From positions 1 through 64,000 of the IMG/VR virus record IMGVR_UViG_3300025098_000019: a DNA stretch of 64,000 nucleotides. One strand, 5' to 3'. The notes under the pieces are model-generated. The model was not told the origin of the DNA. It was given only the letters and a program-made list of their open reading frames with translations, and searched no databases. The number at the start of each line of letters is the position of its first letter. The first letter of the stretch is position 1. Shown here one piece after another: positions 9,232 through 61,741 of this stretch. Made by a program: the position numbers and the translations under genes. The stretch comes from a virus.

Positions 9232-10183
9232 TCCGCACTTGCTCCAATATCCAATCATATGTTTTCTTAATACCATACTCAAGGTCTTCGTTAGGTGCCC
9301 ACCTTAGCTCTCTTTTTATTAACTTGTTATTACTTTTCCTGCCCATTACCCCTAACGGTCCGTCGACATTTGTAATTTTAATATTTTTTTGAGCAATGCT
9401 ACCTATCATGTATGCAAGATCGTTGATAGATATCATTCTTTCACTACCAAGGTTTATTGGCTGATCATAAGACCCGTTCATAATACGATCAATTCCTTTT
9501 ATACATTCATCAATATACAAAAATGTTCGTGTTTGCATTCCTGATCCCCAAACTTCAATACTATCGTTTTGTGTTTCAGCAACTTTTCTGCATAATGCAG
9601 CAGGTGATTTTTCTTTACCATTATTCCACGAACCTTCAGGACCATATATATTGTGTAGTCGGGCGATCCTTACATGCAAATTATGATTACGTGCATATGC
9701 TAGATATAATCTTTCACTAAACAACTTTTCCCAACCATAATCTGAATCAGGATCTGCTGGATATGCCAACGATTCCTCTAACGATGGATTTGCAATACCT
9801 GTTTGTAACTGTTGAGGGTACATACAAGCACTAGAAGAATAAAATATTCTAGAAACTTTATTCTTTACCATTTCATTAACAATATTTAAATTAATTGTTG
9901 CTGAGTTATGCATAATGTCTGCATCATTTTCACCTGTAAAAATATATCCTGCTCCGCCCATGTCAGCAGCTAATTGATATATTTCGTATAAGTCACTAGT
10001 TACTAGTTTGCTAACTTCGTATTGATCACGTAAGTCTGCTATATAAAACTCGTCAGCAGCAGTTTCTGCATATTCAGGATGCTTTAAGTCAGCACCAATA
10101 ACATAATAACCTTTTTCTTTAAGGTCTTTTACTAAATGTGCGCCAATGAATCCGCCGGCTCCGCATACAAGTATTTTTTTCAT
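9218..10183 (-). CDS. NAD-dependent epimerase, GDP-mannose 3,5-epimerase-like
   Basis: GAGGFIG, LAADMGGAGYI, YSSSACMYP, YGWEK (YxxxK), RLHNIYGP.G.W..GKEKSPAALCRK and QTRTF match the GME subfamily of extended SDRs. Confidence 0.88.
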   Translation of the reverse strand: MKKILVCGAGGFIGAHLVKDLKEKGYYVIGADLKHPEYAETAADEFYIADLRDQYEVSKLVTSDLYEIYQLAADMGGAGYIFTGENDADIMHNSATINLNIVNEMVKNKVSRIFYSSSACMYPQQLQTGIANPSLEESLAYPADPDSDYGWEKLFSERLYLAYARNHNLHVRIARLHNIYGPEGSWNNGKEKSPAALCRKVAETQNDSIEVWGSGMQTRTFLYIDECIKGIDRIMNGSYDQPINLGSERMISINDLAYMIGSIAQKNIKITNVDGPLGVMGRKSNNKLIKRELRWAPNEDLEYGIKKTYDWILEQVRNAST

Positions 10184-10184
10184 T

Positions 10185-56276: not shown

Positions 56277-58049
56277 ATGATTCGCATTAAAGACCTAACT
56301 GTTAAAAACTTTATGAGTGTGGGTAATCAAACACAGGCTGTAGATTTTAACAAAGACAACTTAACGTTAGTACTTGGTGAAAATTTAGATCAAGGTGGGG
56401 ACGACAGTGGCTCACGTAATGGTACTGGTAAAACTACAATCATTAATGCACTAAGTTATGCATTATACGGTACTGCACTTACTAATATCAAACGAAACAA
56501 CTTGATTAATAAAACTAACAGCAAAGGAATGTTAGTTACACTACACTTTGAAAAGAACAACGTAGACTACAGGATTGAGCGAGGACGCTCTCCTAATATT
56601 TTAAAGTTTTATGTGAACAATCAAGAGCAAGAACAAATTGACGAAAGTCAAGGTGATAGCCGTAAGACACAAGAAGAAATTGATTCCTTGTTAGGAATGT
56701 CGCACACAATGTTTAAAAATATTGTTGCACTAAACACATATTCAGAACCGTTTCTTGCAATGCGTACAAATGATCAACGTGCTATTATTGAACAACTATT
56801 AGGTATTACATTATTGTCTGAAAAGGCAGAAGTACTAAAAGAAGGTACACGTAGAACTAAAGATGCAATTACCGAAGAAACTCTTAAGATTGAAGCAATA
56901 CAAACTGCTAACAGTAAGATCGAAGGCACTATTGACAATCTAAAGAAGAATCAACGTGCATGGGTCGCAAAACAACGATCTGATGTTGAAAAACTTAACA
57001 AAGCTATTGGTGAGTTAGAACAATTAGACATCGATACAGAACTTGAATTGCACGAAAAACTATCAAATTGGACTGAACATAATAATTCTATTTTGGCTCT
57101 TAAAAAGGAATTAAGCACATTAGAGCCGGCACTATTACGTGCTGACAGATCTGTTGAAAAAGCAAAAAAAGATGCCGCTGATTTAGATCAAGGCACATGT
57201 CATTCGTGTGGACAAGATCTTCCTGCTGATAAAAAAGCAGAGATAGAAAAACGCAAACAGTCGGAATTAGAAGATGCTATTTCGTATCAAACAGAGATAC
57301 AAGAAAAGGTTTCTTCTGTTGCTGAAGCACTAACAGAAATTGGTGACATTAACGGCAAACCTACAACATTTTACGATACTGCAAAAGAAGCATATGAACA
57401 TCGAAGCAACGTTGAAAATTTACGCAATGCTTTGATAAGTAAACATGAGGATACAGATCCTTATCAGAGTCAAATTGACGAATTAAACGATAGTGCAATT
57501 CAAGAAGTTAATTGGGAAAGTGTAAATCAATTAACGTCTTACAAAGAGCACCAAGATTTCTTATTGAAACTGCTTACTAACAAGGACAGTTTTATTCGTA
57601 AAAAGATTATTGATCAAAATCTTGCATATCTAAACAACAGGCTTACATACTATCTTGACAAATTAGGCTTACCACATCAAGTACTATTTCAAAATGATCT
57701 AGCTGTTGAAATTACACAGTTAGGACAGGATTTAGATTTTGATAATTTAAGTAGAGGCGAACGTAACAGATTGATTTTAGGACTATCATTTGCATTTAGA
57801 GATGTTTGGGAAAGTTTATATCAAGGTGTTAATTTACTGTTTATTGACGAATTAATTGACAGTGGTATGGATACAGCAGGTGTTGAGAATTCACTAAGTG
57901 TCCTTAAGAAGATGGCTAGGGAACGTGAAAAGAATATCTACTTAATTAGTCACAAAGACGAACTAGTTGGTAGAGTTAATAACGTATTAAAAGTAATAAA
58001 AGAAAACGGTTTCACTAGTTACGAGAACGATGTAGAAGTTGTAGAATGA
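56277..58049 (+). CDS. gp46: Recombination ATPase subunit (Rad50/SbcC-like)
   Basis: KNFMS, Walker A NGTGKT, CHSC zinc hook, LSRGE signature, LLFIDE Walker B, ISH. Confidence 0.95.
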   Translation: MIRIKDLTVKNFMSVGNQTQAVDFNKDNLTLVLGENLDQGGDDSGSRNGTGKTTIINALSYALYGTALTNIKRNNLINKTNSKGMLVTLHFEKNNVDYRIERGRSPNILKFYVNNQEQEQIDESQGDSRKTQEEIDSLLGMSHTMFKNIVALNTYSEPFLAMRTNDQRAIIEQLLGITLLSEKAEVLKEGTRRTKDAITEETLKIEAIQTANSKIEGTIDNLKKNQRAWVAKQRSDVEKLNKAIGELEQLDIDTELELHEKLSNWTEHNNSILALKKELSTLEPALLRADRSVEKAKKDAADLDQGTCHSCGQDLPADKKAEIEKRKQSELEDAISYQTEIQEKVSSVAEALTEIGDINGKPTTFYDTAKEAYEHRSNVENLRNALISKHEDTDPYQSQIDELNDSAIQEVNWESVNQLTSYKEHQDFLLKLLTNKDSFIRKKIIDQNLAYLNNRLTYYLDKLGLPHQVLFQNDLAVEITQLGQDLDFDNLSRGERNRLILGLSFAFRDVWESLYQGVNLLFIDELIDSGMDTAGVENSLSVLKKMAREREKNIYLISHKDELVGRVNNVLKVIKENGFTSYENDVEVVE

Positions 58050-59029
58050 GTAACGAAAAATTTAATAATGCATGTAATAGAATAGCACAGCCATGTCCGC
58101 CTATATGGATGATGAGACAAGCTGGACGGTATCAAAAAAGTTACATGGAACTAAAAGAAAAATACACGTTTGAACAAATGTGTAAATTGCCGCAACTTGC
58201 TATGCAAACGGCAATGCTACCGATTAACGAGTTTGACTTTGATGCCGCAATATTGTTTAGCGACATACTTTGGCATTTAGAAGGATTAGGATTTCCTGTT
58301 GAATTTGCTCCAGGTCCTAAGTTTACAGAACACTTAACTGAAGAAAACTATTCTAAGTTTACTGATGTTGACTCAGCAATGTTACACCTTGAATTTCAGA
58401 AAAAAGCAATTATTGCTACAAAAGAAAATTTGTCGCAAAAGAAAAGTTTGATTGGCTTTGTAGGTGGTCCTTGGAGTTTACTTAACTATGCGTTAGGAAC
58501 TAATAAAGTTAGTAAAGAGTTTAAAACAATGTATCTTAAAACTGTACTTGTTCCTCTAATAAAAGAAAGTATTAGAGAGCAAAAAAGAGCAGGTGCTGAT
58601 GTTGTAATGATACTCGATAGTGGACTAGACAATGTTAGTAAAAGTTATTACGACACTACATATATAGAATTTCTTAAAGAAATTGCGTTAATTGGTGATG
58701 TAGGTTATTATGTTAGAGGCATACCAGAAGGAAGTCTTTCTAAAATAAAAAAATTAGACTTCGCTGGCATTGGTATTGACAGTTCTCAAGATTTACCTAA
58801 AACATTAAAAACATATTCAAAAGGATTTGTTCAAGGAAACTTTAACGAACAATTTTTATTACTTGAAACAAGATTATTCAAATACGAATTAGATAAGTGG
58901 TTAGACACACTATCAGGTGTAGACACTACAGGATGGATATGCGGATTAGGACACGGTATTACAAAAACTACTCCAACAGATCATATTCATCATTTTGTAA
59001 AAACAGTTAGGAGTCATTTTAGTTCATGA
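58046..59029 (+). CDS. hemE: Uroporphyrinogen decarboxylase
   Basis: PIWMMRQAGRY, DAAILFSDIL, IGFVGGPWS...Y, QGN, GLGHG. Confidence 0.93.
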   Translation: MSNEKFNNACNRIAQPCPPIWMMRQAGRYQKSYMELKEKYTFEQMCKLPQLAMQTAMLPINEFDFDAAILFSDILWHLEGLGFPVEFAPGPKFTEHLTEENYSKFTDVDSAMLHLEFQKKAIIATKENLSQKKSLIGFVGGPWSLLNYALGTNKVSKEFKTMYLKTVLVPLIKESIREQKRAGADVVMILDSGLDNVSKSYYDTTYIEFLKEIALIGDVGYYVRGIPEGSLSKIKKLDFAGIGIDSSQDLPKTLKTYSKGFVQGNFNEQFLLLETRLFKYELDKWLDTLSGVDTTGWICGLGHGITKTTPTDHIHHFVKTVRSHFSS

Positions 59030-59766
59030 TTAGAGTCGGTGCAAGAGGAAGTAAATTAGCTCTAGCATATGCTAGGAAAGCATGTGAGCAATTAGATTGC
59101 GAAACTGAAATTATTGAAATTACAACTCCAGGTGACATCGACACCGAAACTCCTATATACGAAATGGGAGGTAAAGGTGTATTTTGTAGTACAATTGAGC
59201 AAGAACTATTAAACGGTAATATTGACGTTGCTGTTCATAGTTTAAAAGATGTTCCTGGCCAAGAAACAGACGGATTAATAATTGCTGCAATGTTGCAACG
59301 AAACAGTCCTCATGATGTTCTTATTGGAAAAGTTAGTTATAATTGCACTATTGGAACTAGCAGTCCTAGACGTACTGCACAATTATTAGATCTTTACAAA
59401 GACTTGAGAATTAATATCAAACCTATTAGAGGAAATATAGATACTAGGTTAGAAAAACTTGACAATGGCGAGTATGATGCTATAATACTAGCAGAAGCTG
59501 GGCTTCAAGCACTTAATATATCAAGACCAACAGTTAAGGTACCAACTATTCCTGCTGTAGGACAAGGTATTATTGCTTTGCAGACTAGACAGGACGACGA
59601 AGAAACAATAAAAATAGTTAAACAGGCAAATCACGATAAAACATTTAAACAGGCAACAATTGAAAGAGCATTTTTAAAAGGCATAGACGGAGACTGTCAT
59701 ACAAAAATAGCAGCTCACGCAACTGGATCAAATCCAATTACACTTAAAGCAATGTATTATGAATGA
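59026..59766 (+). CDS. hemC: Hydroxymethylbilane synthase (porphobilinogen deaminase), compact form
   Basis: RVGARGSKLAL, GGKGVF, DVAVHSLKDVP, IGTSSPRR, IRGNIDTRL, ILAEAGL, PAVGQG, ERAFL...GDC (cofactor Cys). Confidence 0.93.
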   Translation: MIRVGARGSKLALAYARKACEQLDCETEIIEITTPGDIDTETPIYEMGGKGVFCSTIEQELLNGNIDVAVHSLKDVPGQETDGLIIAAMLQRNSPHDVLIGKVSYNCTIGTSSPRRTAQLLDLYKDLRINIKPIRGNIDTRLEKLDNGEYDAIILAEAGLQALNISRPTVKVPTIPAVGQGIIALQTRQDDEETIKIVKQANHDKTFKQATIERAFLKGIDGDCHTKIAAHATGSNPITLKAMYYE

Positions 59767-59971: not shown

Positions 59972-59977
59972 GCACGG

Positions 59978-59983
59978 TAAGTA
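59978..59983 (+). promoter_or_regulatory. Possible late-promoter variant (TAAGTA), leaderless
   Basis: One mismatch to TAAATA, 5 nt before the ATG at 59989; no RBS. Confidence 0.3.
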
Positions 59984-59988
59984 AGTTC

Positions 59989-60438
59989 ATGCAGTGGACT
60001 TATGAAGGCAAAATTATAGACAATATACCAGACGAATACGAAGGTTTTGTTTATATCATTACAAACACCACTACAGATCAAAAATACATAGGCAAAAAAC
60101 TAGCAAAGTTTAAAACTACTAAGCCACCACTTAAAGGCAAGAAAAATAAAAGACGCGGTTACAAAGAAAGCGACTGGAGAACATACTACGGTAGTTCTGA
60201 TAGATTAAACGCAGATGTAGCCGAGCTAGGCGAAGACAAGTTTACAAGAGAAATATTATACCTATGTAAAGGTAGGGGCGAAATGTCCTATATAGAGGCA
60301 CGAGAGCAGTTTGACAGGCGAGTACTTGAAACTGATGATTACTATAATGGTATCATTAATGTTAGAGTAGGCGGATCAGACAAACTTAAACAGGCATTGC
60401 TAGAACATCACATCAAGGCAAAACATTCCAACACCTAA
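59989..60438 (+). CDS. Small stand-alone GIY-YIG nuclease
   Basis: GFVYIITN...KYIGKK, YYGSS, F.REIL, catalytic-type E (YIEA), YYN. Confidence 0.82.
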   Translation: MQWTYEGKIIDNIPDEYEGFVYIITNTTTDQKYIGKKLAKFKTTKPPLKGKKNKRRGYKESDWRTYYGSSDRLNADVAELGEDKFTREILYLCKGRGEMSYIEAREQFDRRVLETDDYYNGIINVRVGGSDKLKQALLEHHIKAKHSNT

Positions 60439-60810
60439 GGTTGGCGGGCCAGATTAGAAATACCGCTGTGGAAAAAGCTCTCGTATAGAAGCACACGTAC
60501 ATATTGATTGACACACCAGAGTGTGGAAGCCACCAAACAAATTGGGCTCACTAGTTGATATAGATTGCATGTTGGCAGTCGAAAAACACAAACACAGTAC
60601 ATAAAAACTCTTTAGCAATAGGAACGAAGCGAGAGGTAGCTGGAAACAGCGATGTCGACGTAGGTTGGGAAAGGTCAGAGCCCATTGTACTTTGTGTATA
60701 AACAATTACCTACTTCCAATGTCTCGGCTGGTGCGACTCACATGAAGCGTATTTTGAGATTAGATGGGACCGTAACAGGTTCCGTCTGACTGAAACAATC
60801 TACATGAAAC
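60439..60810 (+). ncRNA. Putative large structured non-coding RNA (family not recognised)
   Basis: GC-enriched intergenic stretch with many hand-found helices containing G-U pairs and GNRA loops (e.g. GCUG-GAAA-CAGC 60639-50; AGAUGGGACC/GGUUCCGUCU 60762-87) and crossing long-range pairings. Confidence 0.65.
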
Positions 60811-60815
60811 TTAAA

Positions 60816-60935
60816 CATTATTACTTCGTAATAATGCATTCATCTTTATATTCATTTGTATCTATCTGATGTAATTACTTTAAACGAAGTGTTTAGTTTG
60901 AGCGTTAGCGATAACTTGTTTCGTGTAGCGAAACA
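60816..60935. repeat. Array of short inverted repeats (hairpins)
   Basis: CATTATTAC-TTC-GTAATAATG (60816-36), TAAAC-GAAGT-GTTTA (60881-95), AGTT.GA.GC-GTTA-GC.GA.AACT (60895-916), TGTTTCG-TGTAG-CGAAACA (60917-35). Confidence 0.75.
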
Positions 60936-60943
60936 TATAAATA
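60936..60943 (+). promoter_or_regulatory. T4-type late promoter TATAAATA
   Basis: Exact consensus, upstream of the AAGG RBS and ATG at 60974. Confidence 0.75.
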
Positions 60944-60973: not shown

Positions 60974-61741
60974 ATGAAAATAAATGATATATTAAATGAA
61001 TCTGATGTTAAAGCTGATCCAAAGATAGTGGATAAATTTGCTGGCGTAAGTGATAGTCAAAGATCATACTACATATACCAATGGGCAAAAGAAAAAGGCA
61101 TTGACAGCGATGACGCAATGCAACTAGCTGGATATAAGCGTGGTAGTTATATGGGTGCAGGATCTTACATGTGGAACTATGCTCCAAACGAAAGCATTGA
61201 GGAAGCACCTGCAGGTATGTTAAAACAAGTAGGACGTAGACTTGGTGCTAAGGCCGCAGGCGCTATAGGCATGAAAGGCACCGCAGCAAAATTAGGCGGG
61301 GCTGCTGACGCAGGCAAAGCAGCAAATCAGTTAAAAGTTAAACTTCAAGGATACCTTGGTAAAACTGGCGGTAATATAAAGCAATTAGATGCTCAAGAAC
61401 TTTCTGCATTTTTAAAACAACAACAACTTCCAACTAACGCTGTACCTGCAAGTGGTATAATTGCACCAAAAGACGTTGATAAAGTTTTAATGAAAACTAT
61501 TCAAACAAGTAATAAAGCCGCAGGCGCACCTGCTGGCGATGCACCACAACAAGATGCACCACAACAAGCAGCAGGTGGCGGACAGCAACAAGCAGCAGCA
61601 CCACAAGCAAGTGCTCCACAAAAACAAGCAAGTGCTCCGCAACAACAGGCAGCAAGTGCAACAGGAATACCTGCAAATATACAAGCGCAGTTAGATTCGC
61701 TAACACCAACAGAGAAAAAAGTATTGGCAGGAGTTATATAA
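60974..61741 (+). CDS. Putative head-internal virion protein (Ala/Gln/Pro-rich)
   Basis: MKINDILNE N-terminus, I/L-x-E sites, late promoter, low-complexity linker. Confidence 0.6.
   Translation: MKINDILNESDVKADPKIVDKFAGVSDSQRSYYIYQWAKEKGIDSDDAMQLAGYKRGSYMGAGSYMWNYAPNESIEEAPAGMLKQVGRRLGAKAAGAIGMKGTAAKLGGAADAGKAANQLKVKLQGYLGKTGGNIKQLDAQELSAFLKQQQLPTNAVPASGIIAPKDVDKVLMKTIQTSNKAAGAPAGDAPQQDAPQQAAGGGQQQAAAPQASAPQKQASAPQQQAASATGIPANIQAQLDSLTPTEKKVLAGVI
61538..61650 (+). repeat. Short in-frame tandem repeats
   Basis: GATGCACCACAACAA x2 (61538-61567) and CAAGCAAGTGCTCC-based 21-mer x2. Confidence 0.7.

What the first reader, a model, noticed from the sequence alone, without database searches (positions are those of the whole stretch)
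59989..60810. GIY-YIG nuclease fused transcriptionally to a ~370-nt multi-pseudoknotted RNA
Seen: the only long non-coding gap in the window starts at the nuclease stop codon, and that stop sits in the loop of a CCAAC/GUUGG hairpin (60428-44). The gap is GC-enriched (about 43-45% in two lines counted). Local hairpins include CACAC-CAGA-GUGUG (60512-25), GCUG-GAAA-CAGC (60639-50) and a 10-bp stem with G-U pairs (60762-87). Long-range helices: UGGGCUC 60543-49/GAGCCCA 60678-84; UAGAUUG 60561-67/CAAUCUA 60796-802; AUGUUGGCA 60569-77/UGUCGACGU 60653-61; ACACAGUACA 60592-601/UGUACUUUGUGU 60686-97; GUAGGU 60660-65/ACCUAC 60708-13. Several of these cross, implying pseudoknots, and the G-U pairs and GNRA loops point to a plus-strand RNA. 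It lacks tRNA, tmRNA and RNase P hallmarks and the normal group I P7 order. Known: large nuclease-associated RNAs (HEARO/omegaRNA) and large phage RNAs exist. Inference: this may be an undescribed nuclease-RNA ribonucleoprotein, a ribozyme, or an origin-priming RNA.
Basis: partly seen in the sequence, partly recalled or inferred. Interest (0 to 1): 0.9.

Follow-up and report, generated by a model that had tools for sequence, protein, structure and literature searches.

The report
Uncatalogued twin-box phage RNA beside nuclease
The gene-free stretch behind a small DNA-cutting enzyme gene of this uncultured marine T4-like phage encodes a real, knotted, roughly 400-base RNA of a family that no catalogue holds; it carries one short word twice, the two copies always mutating together, and it is probably an independent RNA gene rather than the enzyme's guide.

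Summary
Real, and not in Rfam. About 60428-60845 (+) encodes a ~400-nt pseudoknotted RNA. It is conserved in several hundred IMG/VR contigs, more strongly than the nuclease gene before it.

On 53 distinct sequences my model has 94 pairs, 95.9% paired. 43 pairs changed on both sides, against 25.4 +/- 2.2 in shuffles (0 of 500).

Four fail, including the hairpin said to hold the stop codon: CCAACA pairs with a hairpin loop 140 nt downstream.

A 7-nt word (ACAUGAA, 60740-46 and 60802-08) is identical in both copies in 106 of 109 distinct RNAs. Six variant words changed in both copies. No complementary partner exists in cis. The function is unknown.

The SegE-type GIY-YIG nuclease lay upstream in nearly every locus with enough upstream DNA. 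The two are still separable:
- a second phage lineage has the RNA without the nuclease;
- phage Melnitz has a nested nuclease homologue elsewhere without the RNA;
- about a tenth of loci have another ORF between them.

Best reading: an autonomous trans-acting RNA gene with a resident Seg-type homing endonuclease at its 5' edge.

Earlier agents of this scan reported the same family ("twin-box RNA") on other genomes. My tests agree with them.

The parts
59989..60438 (+). SegE-type GIY-YIG nuclease, 149 aa: catalytic domain plus a ~25-aa tail, no recognisable DNA-binding domain
   Evidence: PF19835 E 2e-35, residues 3-123. PHROG 447/7363 homing endonuclease. Intact in more than 170 distinct loci. 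Diversity at codon positions 1+2 is far below position 3.
60428..60845 (+). Twin-box RNA. The earliest supported pair starts at 60428, inside the nuclease's last codons. The RNA ends with the terminator-like hairpin and U-rich tail. True ends are not mapped.
   Evidence: Conservation blocks of 95-99% identity. Covariation counts. MI analysis of 113 distinct sequences.
60428..60433 (+). Pseudoknot strand CCAACA, pairing with UGUUGG 60570-75
   Evidence: 100% paired, 3 of 6 pairs with double changes. C-G 81 / A-U 18 and A-U 86 / G-C 21 in the larger set.
60443..60467 (+). Hairpin S1: GGCGG/CCGCU with a 15-nt partly variable loop
   Evidence: 99.6% paired. Four pairs invariant, one G-U/A-U switch. 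No double changes.
60468..60496 (+). S2 (GUG/CAC), enclosing an A-rich loop and hairpin 60477-82/60488-92
   Evidence: U-A to A-U in 7 sequences. All 5 pairs of the inner hairpin show double changes.
60501..60561 (+). S3, 10-bp helix 60501-10/60552-61. It encloses hairpin 60512-16/60521-25 and AGCC/GGCU 60528-31/60545-48. Another family subtype has a single hairpin here.
   Evidence: 5 pairs with double changes. Top MI pairs 60502/60560, 60503/60559, 60504/60558, all 100% Watson-Crick.
60563..60580 (+). Hairpin S4: GAUUG/CAGUC. Its 8-nt loop forms the pseudoknot with 60428-33.
   Evidence: U-A to A-U in 17 sequences, 99.6% paired.
60588..60601 (+). 5' strand of long-range helix S5. Partner is 60686-97.
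   Evidence: 5 of 6 pairs with double changes in 60596-601/60686-91, 100% paired.
60608..60635 (+). Hairpin S6 with an invariant loop AAUAGGAACGAA. Its GGAA could pair with the invariant UUCC at 60714-17.
   Evidence: 3 pairs with double changes. GGAA/UUCC is complementary in all 53 sequences but never varies, so it is untestable.
60636..60651 (+). Variable peripheral hairpin S7. It is GCUG-GAAA-CAGC here and is replaced by inserts of 40-130 nt in relatives.
   Evidence: Alignment A1 columns 217-347.
60660..60713 (+). S8: GUAGGU 60660-65 with ACCUAC 60708-13. It crosses S5, making a pseudoknot.
   Evidence: 99.4% paired, 2 pairs with double changes. A further U-A to C-G change occurs in the nuclease-free lineage.
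60673..60791 (+). S9: GGUCA 60673-77 with UGACU 60787-91. Tentative. It lies inside the most conserved block, GGGAAAGGUCAGAGCCCA.
   Evidence: 99.6% paired but only G-U/G-C switches. The core 17- to 19-mer is exact in all members found.
60721..60760 (+). S11: GUCUC/GAGAU, enclosing twin box 1
   Evidence: At 60725/60756: C-G 22, U-A 4, A-U 2, with 16 C-A mismatches. Moderate support.
60740..60746 (+). Twin box 1, ACAUGAA, preceded by the constant word ACUC
   Evidence: Identical to box 2 in 106 of 109 distinct RNAs.
60763..60786 (+). Hairpin GAUGGGACC/GGUUCCGUC. It abuts S9, so it may stack on it.
   Evidence: 99.4% paired, C-G to U-A in 4 sequences, many A-U/G-U switches.
60802..60808 (+). 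Twin box 2, ACAUGAA, preceded by the constant word AAUCU
60816..60848 (+). Terminator-like hairpin 60816-23/60829-36 and a U-rich tail
   Evidence: All 8 pairs show double changes across the family (helix 19). The simple terminator scan did not call it because it has fewer than 3 G-C pairs.
60880..60943 (+). Companion element, not part of the RNA fold tested here: GAGCG-NN-AGCGA mini-hairpin, a covarying hairpin, then a late-promoter-like TATAAATA at 60936-43
   Evidence: The GAGCG-NN-AGCGA word follows the RNA in 153 of 192 distinct loci. Related words follow it in the nuclease-free lineage.

Best explanation
About 60428-60845 (+) is the gene of a ~400-nt pseudoknotted non-coding RNA of an uncatalogued family. 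Here it is probably transcribed together with the upstream genes and ended by its own hairpin terminator.

The RNA is an autonomous functional gene. The GIY-YIG ORF in front of it is a free-standing Seg-type homing endonuclease that has settled at the RNA gene's 5' edge, so closely that its last four codons and its stop are RNA sequence. The likely reason is that an almost invariant RNA gene offers a stable recognition and landing site. T4 SegB sits among tRNA genes in the same way.

Inferred, not shown: the RNA acts in trans. Its conserved knotted core would present two copies of one short single-stranded word, box 1 inside helix S11 and box 2 in the 3' tail. These would bind two copies of one co-evolving partner, most simply a complementary nucleic acid.
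For: The RNA is real.
- Blocks of 95-99% identity alternate with variable hairpins.
- 94 pairs are 95.9% paired. 43 have double changes, against 25.4 +/- 2.2 in shuffles (0/500). Slid controls are 34-41% paired.
- MI analysis on 113 distinct sequences recovers the same helices.
- G-U/A-U switches fit only the + strand.

The RNA is autonomous.
- Six contigs of a second phage lineage carry it behind a terminator and an AT-rich spacer. They have no GIY-YIG gene and share no genes with this window.
- In about 10% of loci an extra 80-97-aa ORF lies between nuclease and RNA. The RNA's 5' word is unchanged there.

The nuclease is separable and mobile.
- The Melnitz homologue (70.6% identity) lies after nrdB with no RNA anywhere in that genome.
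- It nests inside the RNA-linked nuclease clade.
- Short homologues without the RNA are common in cultured cyanophages and rhizobiophages.

The nuclease is functional: there is strong purifying selection on it.

Twin boxes.
- They are identical in 106 of 109 RNAs.
- Six variant words changed in both copies: 23 observed against 1.3 expected, maximum 7 in 10,000 shuffles.
- Two further, unrelated word pairs occur in the nuclease-free lineage.
- No complementary partner was found in the RNA or its flanks.
Against: - The linkage is far tighter than for a typical sporadic homing endonuclease. The nuclease was present in 51 of 51 loci sampled through the neighbouring gp46 gene, in about 105 of 107 motif-sampled loci with enough upstream DNA and in 100 of 100 further ones. 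This holds over 53-97% nuclease identity. Some functional coupling is therefore not excluded.
- The nuclease has no recognisable DNA-binding domain.
- No transcript data could be obtained, so ends, processing and expression are inferred.
- No partner of the boxes was found, so the trans-pairing step is inference from the pattern of co-variation alone.
- No cleavage site of the nuclease is known.
Confidence: 0.55

Rival explanations
1. The RNA is the cofactor or guide of the nuclease. The GIY-YIG domain lacks a DNA-binding module, binds the RNA, and is aimed at DNA by it, for example through the twin boxes.
For: - The two are adjacent in nearly every locus across deep nuclease divergence.
- The ORF has no DNA-binding domain.
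- The ORF's stop lies inside the RNA, as in TnpB/omegaRNA loci.
- The RNA core is more conserved than the protein.
Against: - The RNA is kept, with intact twin boxes, in a lineage with no GIY-YIG gene.
- A nested nuclease homologue occurs without the RNA in Melnitz.
- The whole short nuclease family is common without the RNA.
- An unrelated ORF can separate the two.
- No hypervariable guide-like segment matching a target was found.
Confidence: 0.08
2. The RNA is a cis-acting 3' element of the nuclease operon. It would be a stabiliser, a processing ribozyme or a translational control element for the upstream or downstream genes.
For: - There is no room for a promoter between the upstream ORF and the RNA in the T4-like lineage.
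- A terminator lies at its 3' end.
- Complex pseudoknots are typical of ribozymes.
- AUGAA of the boxes is complementary to a UUCAU word just after the terminator hairpin in many members.
Against: - The RNA stands alone after a terminator in the second lineage.
- Upstream and downstream genes differ between contexts.
- The nuclease's start-codon context does not covary with the boxes.
- The UUCAU word does not follow the box variants: the AUAAA and AUGAU clades keep UUCAU.
- 400 nt of near-invariant core is more than a stabiliser needs.
Confidence: 0.12
3. It is a group I or other self-splicing intron, or its remnant, carrying the homing endonuclease ORF.
For: - GIY-YIG ORFs often sit in phage group I introns.
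- The size and a long-range pseudoknot are compatible.
Against: - No intron model matched, even at E up to 10 on 1.2 kb, nor in 10 other members.
- The upstream ORF ends with its own stop and the nuclease has its own start.
- The downstream gene has its own late-type promoter and start.
- The helix order does not match P3-P9.
- The RNA occurs with no ORF in it or beside it.
Confidence: 0.02
4. It is a DNA-level element, such as a replication origin, primer RNA or recombination site. The twin boxes would be identical crossover or strand-transfer words.
For: - Identical short direct repeats are what strand transfer and crossover sites require.
- Very stable GNNA/GAA mini-hairpins, typical of single-stranded DNA signals, follow the RNA in 153 of 192 loci.
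- The locus lies next to the gp46/47 recombination nuclease genes.
Against: - Covariation keeps G-U pairs on one strand only, which argues for RNA.
- No deletion or duplication variants between the boxes were seen. Spacing was 49-67 nt in the 125 distinct family 3' parts where a simple pattern search located both boxes.
- No recombinase or reverse transcriptase is nearby.
Confidence: 0.06

Closest known systems
Free-standing Seg-type GIY-YIG homing endonucleases of T4-like phages, for example SegB in the T4 tRNA gene cluster (from my knowledge of the T4 literature)
   Same: - A small GIY-YIG ORF (PF19835) lies between genes, directly beside a conserved structured-RNA gene.
- It is separable from that gene and can turn up at other loci (Melnitz).
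   Different: - It is fixed in every sampled genome of this lineage rather than sporadic.
- It has no DNA-binding domain.
- Its reading frame runs into the RNA.
- Its cleavage site is unknown.
GOLLD and ROOL RNAs (Rfam RF01998, RF03087)
   Same: - Large, ornate, pseudoknotted non-coding RNAs.
- Often phage-borne and abundant in metagenomes.
- No known function.
   Different: - No covariance-model match.
- Different architecture and smaller size.
- Not next to tRNA genes.
- The same-sense twin boxes are not, to my knowledge, described for these RNAs.
HEARO/omegaRNA of IscB and TnpB (OMEGA systems)
   Same: A structured RNA lies next to, and overlaps the end of, a small nuclease gene in a mobile context.
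   Different: - The nuclease fold is different (GIY-YIG, not RuvC/HNH).
- There is no Rfam match.
- RNA and nuclease each occur without the other.
- No guide segment was identified.
Two-piece tmRNA of pelagimyophages and phage Melnitz (Rfam RF01849)
   Same: A roughly 400-nt pseudoknotted RNA carried by related marine myophages.
   Different: RF01849 scores 106.7 bits in Melnitz but finds nothing in this genome. ARAGORN finds nothing. There is no tag reading frame and no tRNA-like end.

Membership tests
Group I intron | Match to the intron covariance models | tested here: not met
   No hit at gathering score or at E up to 10. None in 10 other family members.
Group I intron | Interrupts a gene whose two exon halves join in frame | tested here: not met
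   The upstream 70-aa ORF ends with TAG at 59969-71. The downstream gene has its own TATAAATA and ATG at 60974. Neighbours differ between loci.
tmRNA, one-piece or two-piece | tRNA-like domain and tag frame; model match | tested here: not met
   ARAGORN finds 0 genes. RF01849 finds nothing in G000, while the Melnitz control scores 106.7 bits.
RNase P RNA | Match to any RNase P model | tested here: not met
   No match at E up to 10. The GGGAAAGGUCAGAGCCC word only loosely recalls the P4 region; that is a resemblance from memory, not a test.
HEARO/omegaRNA guide RNA | Obligate partnership with its nuclease | tested here: not met
   RNA without nuclease. Nuclease without RNA.
HEARO/omegaRNA guide RNA | Variable guide segment matching a DNA target | tested here: inconclusive
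   Only the twin boxes vary in a patterned way. The one 11-nt complement in the 110-kb genome lies inside an ORF and is near chance.
GOLLD / ROOL | Covariance-model match | tested here: not met
Seg-type GIY-YIG homing endonuclease (the ORF) | GIY-YIG catalytic domain of the SegE type | tested here: met
   PF19835, E 2e-35. The ...VY... and YIG motifs and downstream conserved residues are invariant across 74 distinct ORFs.
Seg-type GIY-YIG homing endonuclease (the ORF) | Free-standing and mobile between loci | tested here: met
   It has its own start and stop between genes. The Melnitz copy lies at another locus yet inside the clade.
Seg-type GIY-YIG homing endonuclease (the ORF) | Sporadic presence among close relatives | tested here: not met
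   Present in 51 of 51 loci sampled through gp46.
Seg-type GIY-YIG homing endonuclease (the ORF) | Cleaves the nuclease-free allele near its insertion site | not testable with these tools
   Needs enzyme assays.
Intrinsic terminator (3' end of the RNA) | Stable hairpin followed by a U run | tested here: inconclusive
   The hairpin covaries at all 8 pairs. It is A-U rich, the tail is only U-rich, and the consensus scan did not call it.

The most novel reading that the evidence does not exclude
The RNA is the missing DNA-recognition module of a GIY-YIG nuclease that has no DNA-binding domain. The knotted core would bind the enzyme. The two identical boxes would pair with the two arms of an inverted-repeat DNA site, giving an RNA-aimed homing endonuclease of a fold never yet seen to use RNA. 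The nuclease-free lineage would then use another partner or have lost it.
Probability: 0.06. Interest if true: 0.95.

Novelty: categorically new. Interest (0 to 1): 0.7.

Why it matters
Large, highly conserved RNAs with complex pseudoknots have usually turned out to be ribozymes, ribonucleoprotein cores or assemblies with unusual chemistry.

It carries a feature I know from no described RNA. Two same-sense copies of a short word change in step. That points either to two-site capture of one partner or to a strand-transfer type of mechanism.

It also offers a clean natural system for asking why a homing endonuclease stays fixed beside an RNA gene. The function is unknown, so the value lies in a well-defined new RNA class with a testable handle, the boxes, not in a demonstrated mechanism.

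Tried and rejected
- Hidden coding. Six-frame translation of the gap shows nothing longer than spurious antisense ORFs. Small ORFs starting at the AUG of each box are not kept in frame across the family, and several box variants lack a start codon.
- Decayed C-terminal domain of the nuclease. The covariation is RNA-like, and the same RNA exists with no nuclease.
- Boxes pairing with the nuclease start codon. UUCAUG is there in this window, but start contexts do not follow box variants.
- Boxes mimicking the start region of the downstream gene. ACUCACAAAUGAAA resembles box 1 here, but most of these phage genes start AUGAA(A/G) and there is no co-variation.
- An anti-box in cis. The MI partners of the box columns are only each other. 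A per-sequence complement search found nothing positionally conserved. UUCAU after the terminator does not track the variants.
- An anti-box elsewhere in the 110-kb genome. There are 9 sites against 12 expected. One 11-nt match lies inside an ORF.
- RNAalifold helices 60555-60/60651-56 and GUAGGUUG/CAAUCUAC. Better-covarying partners displace them.
- Cellular homologues. An exact-core scan of 596 Gb of prokaryote genomes gave 70 hits, near chance. Only 3 are real, all on phage-like, gp46-syntenic contigs binned into MAGs.
- Cultured phages. There is no DNA match to the RNA in 50,697 phage records.
- Literature. Two full-text searches found no description of a GIY-YIG-associated RNA of this kind.
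- Read mapping.
- One call was wasted on a mistyped reference and one on a disallowed search term.

Full report
WHAT IS THERE

The window is the first 64 kb of a 110-kb IMG/VR virus record. Around the finding the + strand carries these genes:
- a gp46/SbcC-like recombination nuclease subunit, 56277-58049; its nearest cultured relatives are jumbo and T4-like myophages at about 49% identity;
- uroporphyrinogen decarboxylase and porphobilinogen deaminase genes;
- a 70-aa ORF;
- a 149-aa ORF at 59989-60438, a SegE-type GIY-YIG nuclease (PF19835, E 2e-35, residues 3-123);
- 535 bases without a credible ORF;
- a 255-aa gene starting at 60974.

G+C rises to 0.42-0.445 across 60300-60799 and falls to 0.25 after 60800. 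Rfam finds nothing in the window at gathering scores. At E up to 10 on 1.2 kb it gives only three noise hits. ARAGORN finds no tRNA or tmRNA. The minimum-free-energy fold of the single sequence is not exceptional (z -0.87 on the + strand, +1.71 on the - strand). On its own, this sequence proves nothing.

COMPARATIVE EVIDENCE

The nuclease and the roughly 400 bases after it recur in IMG/VR:
- the RNA core 19-mer matched at least 120;
- a variant of the core matched 108 more.

In an alignment of 54 sequences (A1), 20-base windows reach 95-99% identity at 60460-79, 60600-19, 60660-79 and 60780-99. They are separated by variable, indel-rich hairpins, and conservation collapses after about 60840. 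The nuclease protein varies between 53% and 97% identity across the sampled loci, all of which keep the core word used to find them.

Supported:
- the CACAC/GUGUG hairpin (4 pairs with double changes);
- GUACA/UGUAC of the long-range helix (5 of 5 pairs);
- GUAGGU/ACCUAC (2 pairs, 99.4% paired);
- 9 bp of the 3' hairpin;
- a hairpin of variable size at 60639-50.

Not supported:
- The CCAAC/GUUGG hairpin said to hold the stop codon. It is broken in 14 sequences.
- UGGGCUC/GAGCCCA. It is broken in 13 sequences, with no compensation.
- UAGAUUG/CAAUCUA. It is broken in 19 sequences.
- AUGUUGGCA/UGUCGACGU. It is broken in 20 sequences.

The bases of the failed helices covary with other partners. 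A mutual-information scan of 113 distinct sequences and a second count show three replacements:
- CCAACA 60428-33, the codons Ser-Asn-Thr of the nuclease, pairs with UGUUGG 60570-75.
- UGUUGG lies in the loop of a covarying hairpin, 60563-67/60576-80.
- A 10-bp helix 60501-10/60552-61 closes the 5' three-way junction.

The refined model has 94 pairs, 95.9% paired. 43 pairs have changes on both sides, against 25.4 +/- 2.2 in shuffles (0 of 500). Controls slid by 1-3 columns are 34-41% paired.

Helix 60588-601/60686-97 crosses 60660-65/60708-13, and the 5' pseudoknot is a second crossing. GGUCA/UGACU (60673-77/60787-91) and GCC/GGC are invariant or nearly so and stay tentative. Many A-U/G-U and G-C/G-U switches fit only the + strand. 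A hairpin at 60816-36 with double changes at all 8 pairs, followed by a U-rich tail, is the likely terminator.

THE TWIN BOXES

ACAUGAA occurs at 60740-46, after ACUC, and again at 60802-08, after AAUCU.
- The two 7-mers are identical in 106 of 109 distinct RNAs.
- Six non-majority words each occur in both copies: ACAUAAU, ACAUGAU, ACGUGAA, ACAUAAA, ACAGGAA and ACAUGAG. That is 23 sequences observed, against 1.3 expected and at most 7 in 10,000 shuffles.
- A seventh word, GUAUGAA, appears in the second sample.
- The nuclease-free lineage has ACAGAAAG twice, or AUCAUCAAGU twice.
- The copies are same-sense, so they cannot pair with each other.
- Nothing complementary was found in the RNA, its flanks, the nuclease start region or the downstream gene's start region.
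- Spacing between the boxes is 49-67 nt. Both boxes were found in all 125 family members that a simple pattern search could score.

Such a constraint is expected in two cases: if both words bind the same co-evolving partner, or if a polymerase or recombinase must find the same word twice. I cannot tell which applies.

RELATION TO THE NUCLEASE

Adjacency is almost universal:
- about 105 of 107 motif-sampled loci with enough upstream DNA;
- 100 of 100 in a second sample;
- 51 of 51 loci sampled through the neighbouring gp46 gene, which does not bias towards the module;
- all loci sampled through the downstream gene that had enough upstream DNA.

The locus is mostly syntenic. gp46 lies upstream in 130 of 162 loci and the 255-aa gene lies downstream in 91 of 135, with assorted inserted genes. 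The nuclease is under purifying selection.

Three facts nevertheless separate the two.
1. Six contigs of another phage type carry a diverged but recognisable RNA behind a terminator and about 340 AT-rich bases. They have no GIY-YIG gene and share no protein with this window. The RNA keeps the same 5' pseudoknot logic and has twin boxes.
2. In about a tenth of loci an 80-97-aa ORF lies between nuclease and RNA. The nuclease then ends differently, while the RNA's UCCAACAC-UAAGG start is kept. The overlap seen in this window is therefore incidental.
3. The cultured phage Melnitz has a 146-aa homologue (70.6% identity) after nrdB. No trace of the RNA is found anywhere in its genome. In a maximum-likelihood tree it falls inside the RNA-linked clade, with cyanophage and rhizobiophage homologues outside. 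Support for the nested position is moderate, 83-85%.

I therefore read the nuclease as a Seg-type homing endonuclease resident at the edge of an RNA gene, not as the RNA's partner. The unusually complete linkage keeps the partner hypothesis alive at a low level.

WHAT IT IS NOT

- Not an intron: no model match, no exon halves, and the downstream gene has its own late-type promoter.
- Not a tmRNA: RF01849 finds the Melnitz two-piece tmRNA at 106.7 bits but nothing here.
- Not RNase P, HEARO, GOLLD or ROOL by covariance models, in this window or in ten other members.
- Not cellular: an exact-core scan of 596 Gb of prokaryote genomes gave 70 hits, near the chance expectation. Only three are real, all on gp46-syntenic phage-like contigs inside MAGs.
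- Not in any of 50,697 cultured phage records.
- Two full-text literature searches and one paper on viral structured RNAs gave no description of it.

EARLIER NOTES OF THIS SCAN

Agents working on other genomes had already described this family as a 'twin-box' RNA of unknown function that also occurs without the nuclease. I re-derived the structure, the boxes and the nuclease-free copies independently and agree.

- the 5' pseudoknot reaching into the ORF;
- linkage counts from unbiased sampling;
- the intervening-ORF loci;
- the nested Melnitz nuclease;
- negative tests of several candidate partners for the boxes.

LIMITS

- No transcript evidence could be obtained, so ends and expression are inferred.
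- The alignments are MAFFT-based, and the variable hairpins are poorly aligned.
- The full RNA is too long for the covariance-model tool.
- The function is unknown. The trans-pairing mechanism I commit to rests only on the pattern of box co-variation.

Noticed in passing
window 60880-60943, and the same position in 153 of 192 related loci: A GAGCG-NN-AGCGA mini-hairpin (GNNA loop, two G-C pairs, tandem G-A) follows the RNA at a fixed distance. After it come a covarying hairpin with C-GAA-G type loops and a late-promoter-like TATAAATA. Related words follow the RNA even in the nuclease-free lineage. This element may belong to the same unit.
   Followed up: partly
loci, for example L026, L035, L038, L315, L327, L350: A striking share of metagenomic contigs end inside the module. 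Many end 75-235 nt after the nuclease stop, and about 28 of 80 gp46-selected contigs end within 1.3 kb after gp46. The likely cause is assembly breaks where invariant RNA blocks flank alternative hairpin variants of co-occurring strains.
   Followed up: partly
window 58046-59766: Uroporphyrinogen decarboxylase (PF01208, E 8e-63) and porphobilinogen deaminase (PF01379, E 5e-64) genes lie between gp46 and the module. These are haem/tetrapyrrole auxiliary metabolic genes. Most relatives lack them at this spot.
   Followed up: no
L121, L169, L124, L152 (between nuclease and RNA); L136, L153: The inserted 80-97-aa ORFs are of at least two kinds. One has a GKHxGxxL...YLxW motif. The other has a Cys-x2-Cys zinc-ribbon-like end. 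They occupy the place where a DNA-binding domain of a homing endonuclease might be expected.
   Followed up: no
L279 and L286 (contigs PBPT01000016.1, 335 kb, and PBPT01000082.1, 153 kb): A Red Sea MAG labelled Candidatus Neomarinimicrobiota holds two large contigs with the gp47-gp46-small ORF-nuclease-RNA arrangement. These are probably giant-phage contigs binned into a bacterial genome.
   Followed up: partly
window 9283-10184: A second ORF-poor stretch (240 and 464 bases without an ORF of 60 aa in a crude map). The gap under study is therefore not the only one in the window. Rfam and ARAGORN find nothing there.
   Followed up: no
upstream of the nuclease start, window 59974-59988, and the same place in many loci: A conserved GGUAAGUA word lies 5-8 nt before the nuclease start codon in most loci, even where the sequence further upstream differs. 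It may be a ribosome-binding or regulatory word, or the left edge of the mobile unit.
   Followed up: no
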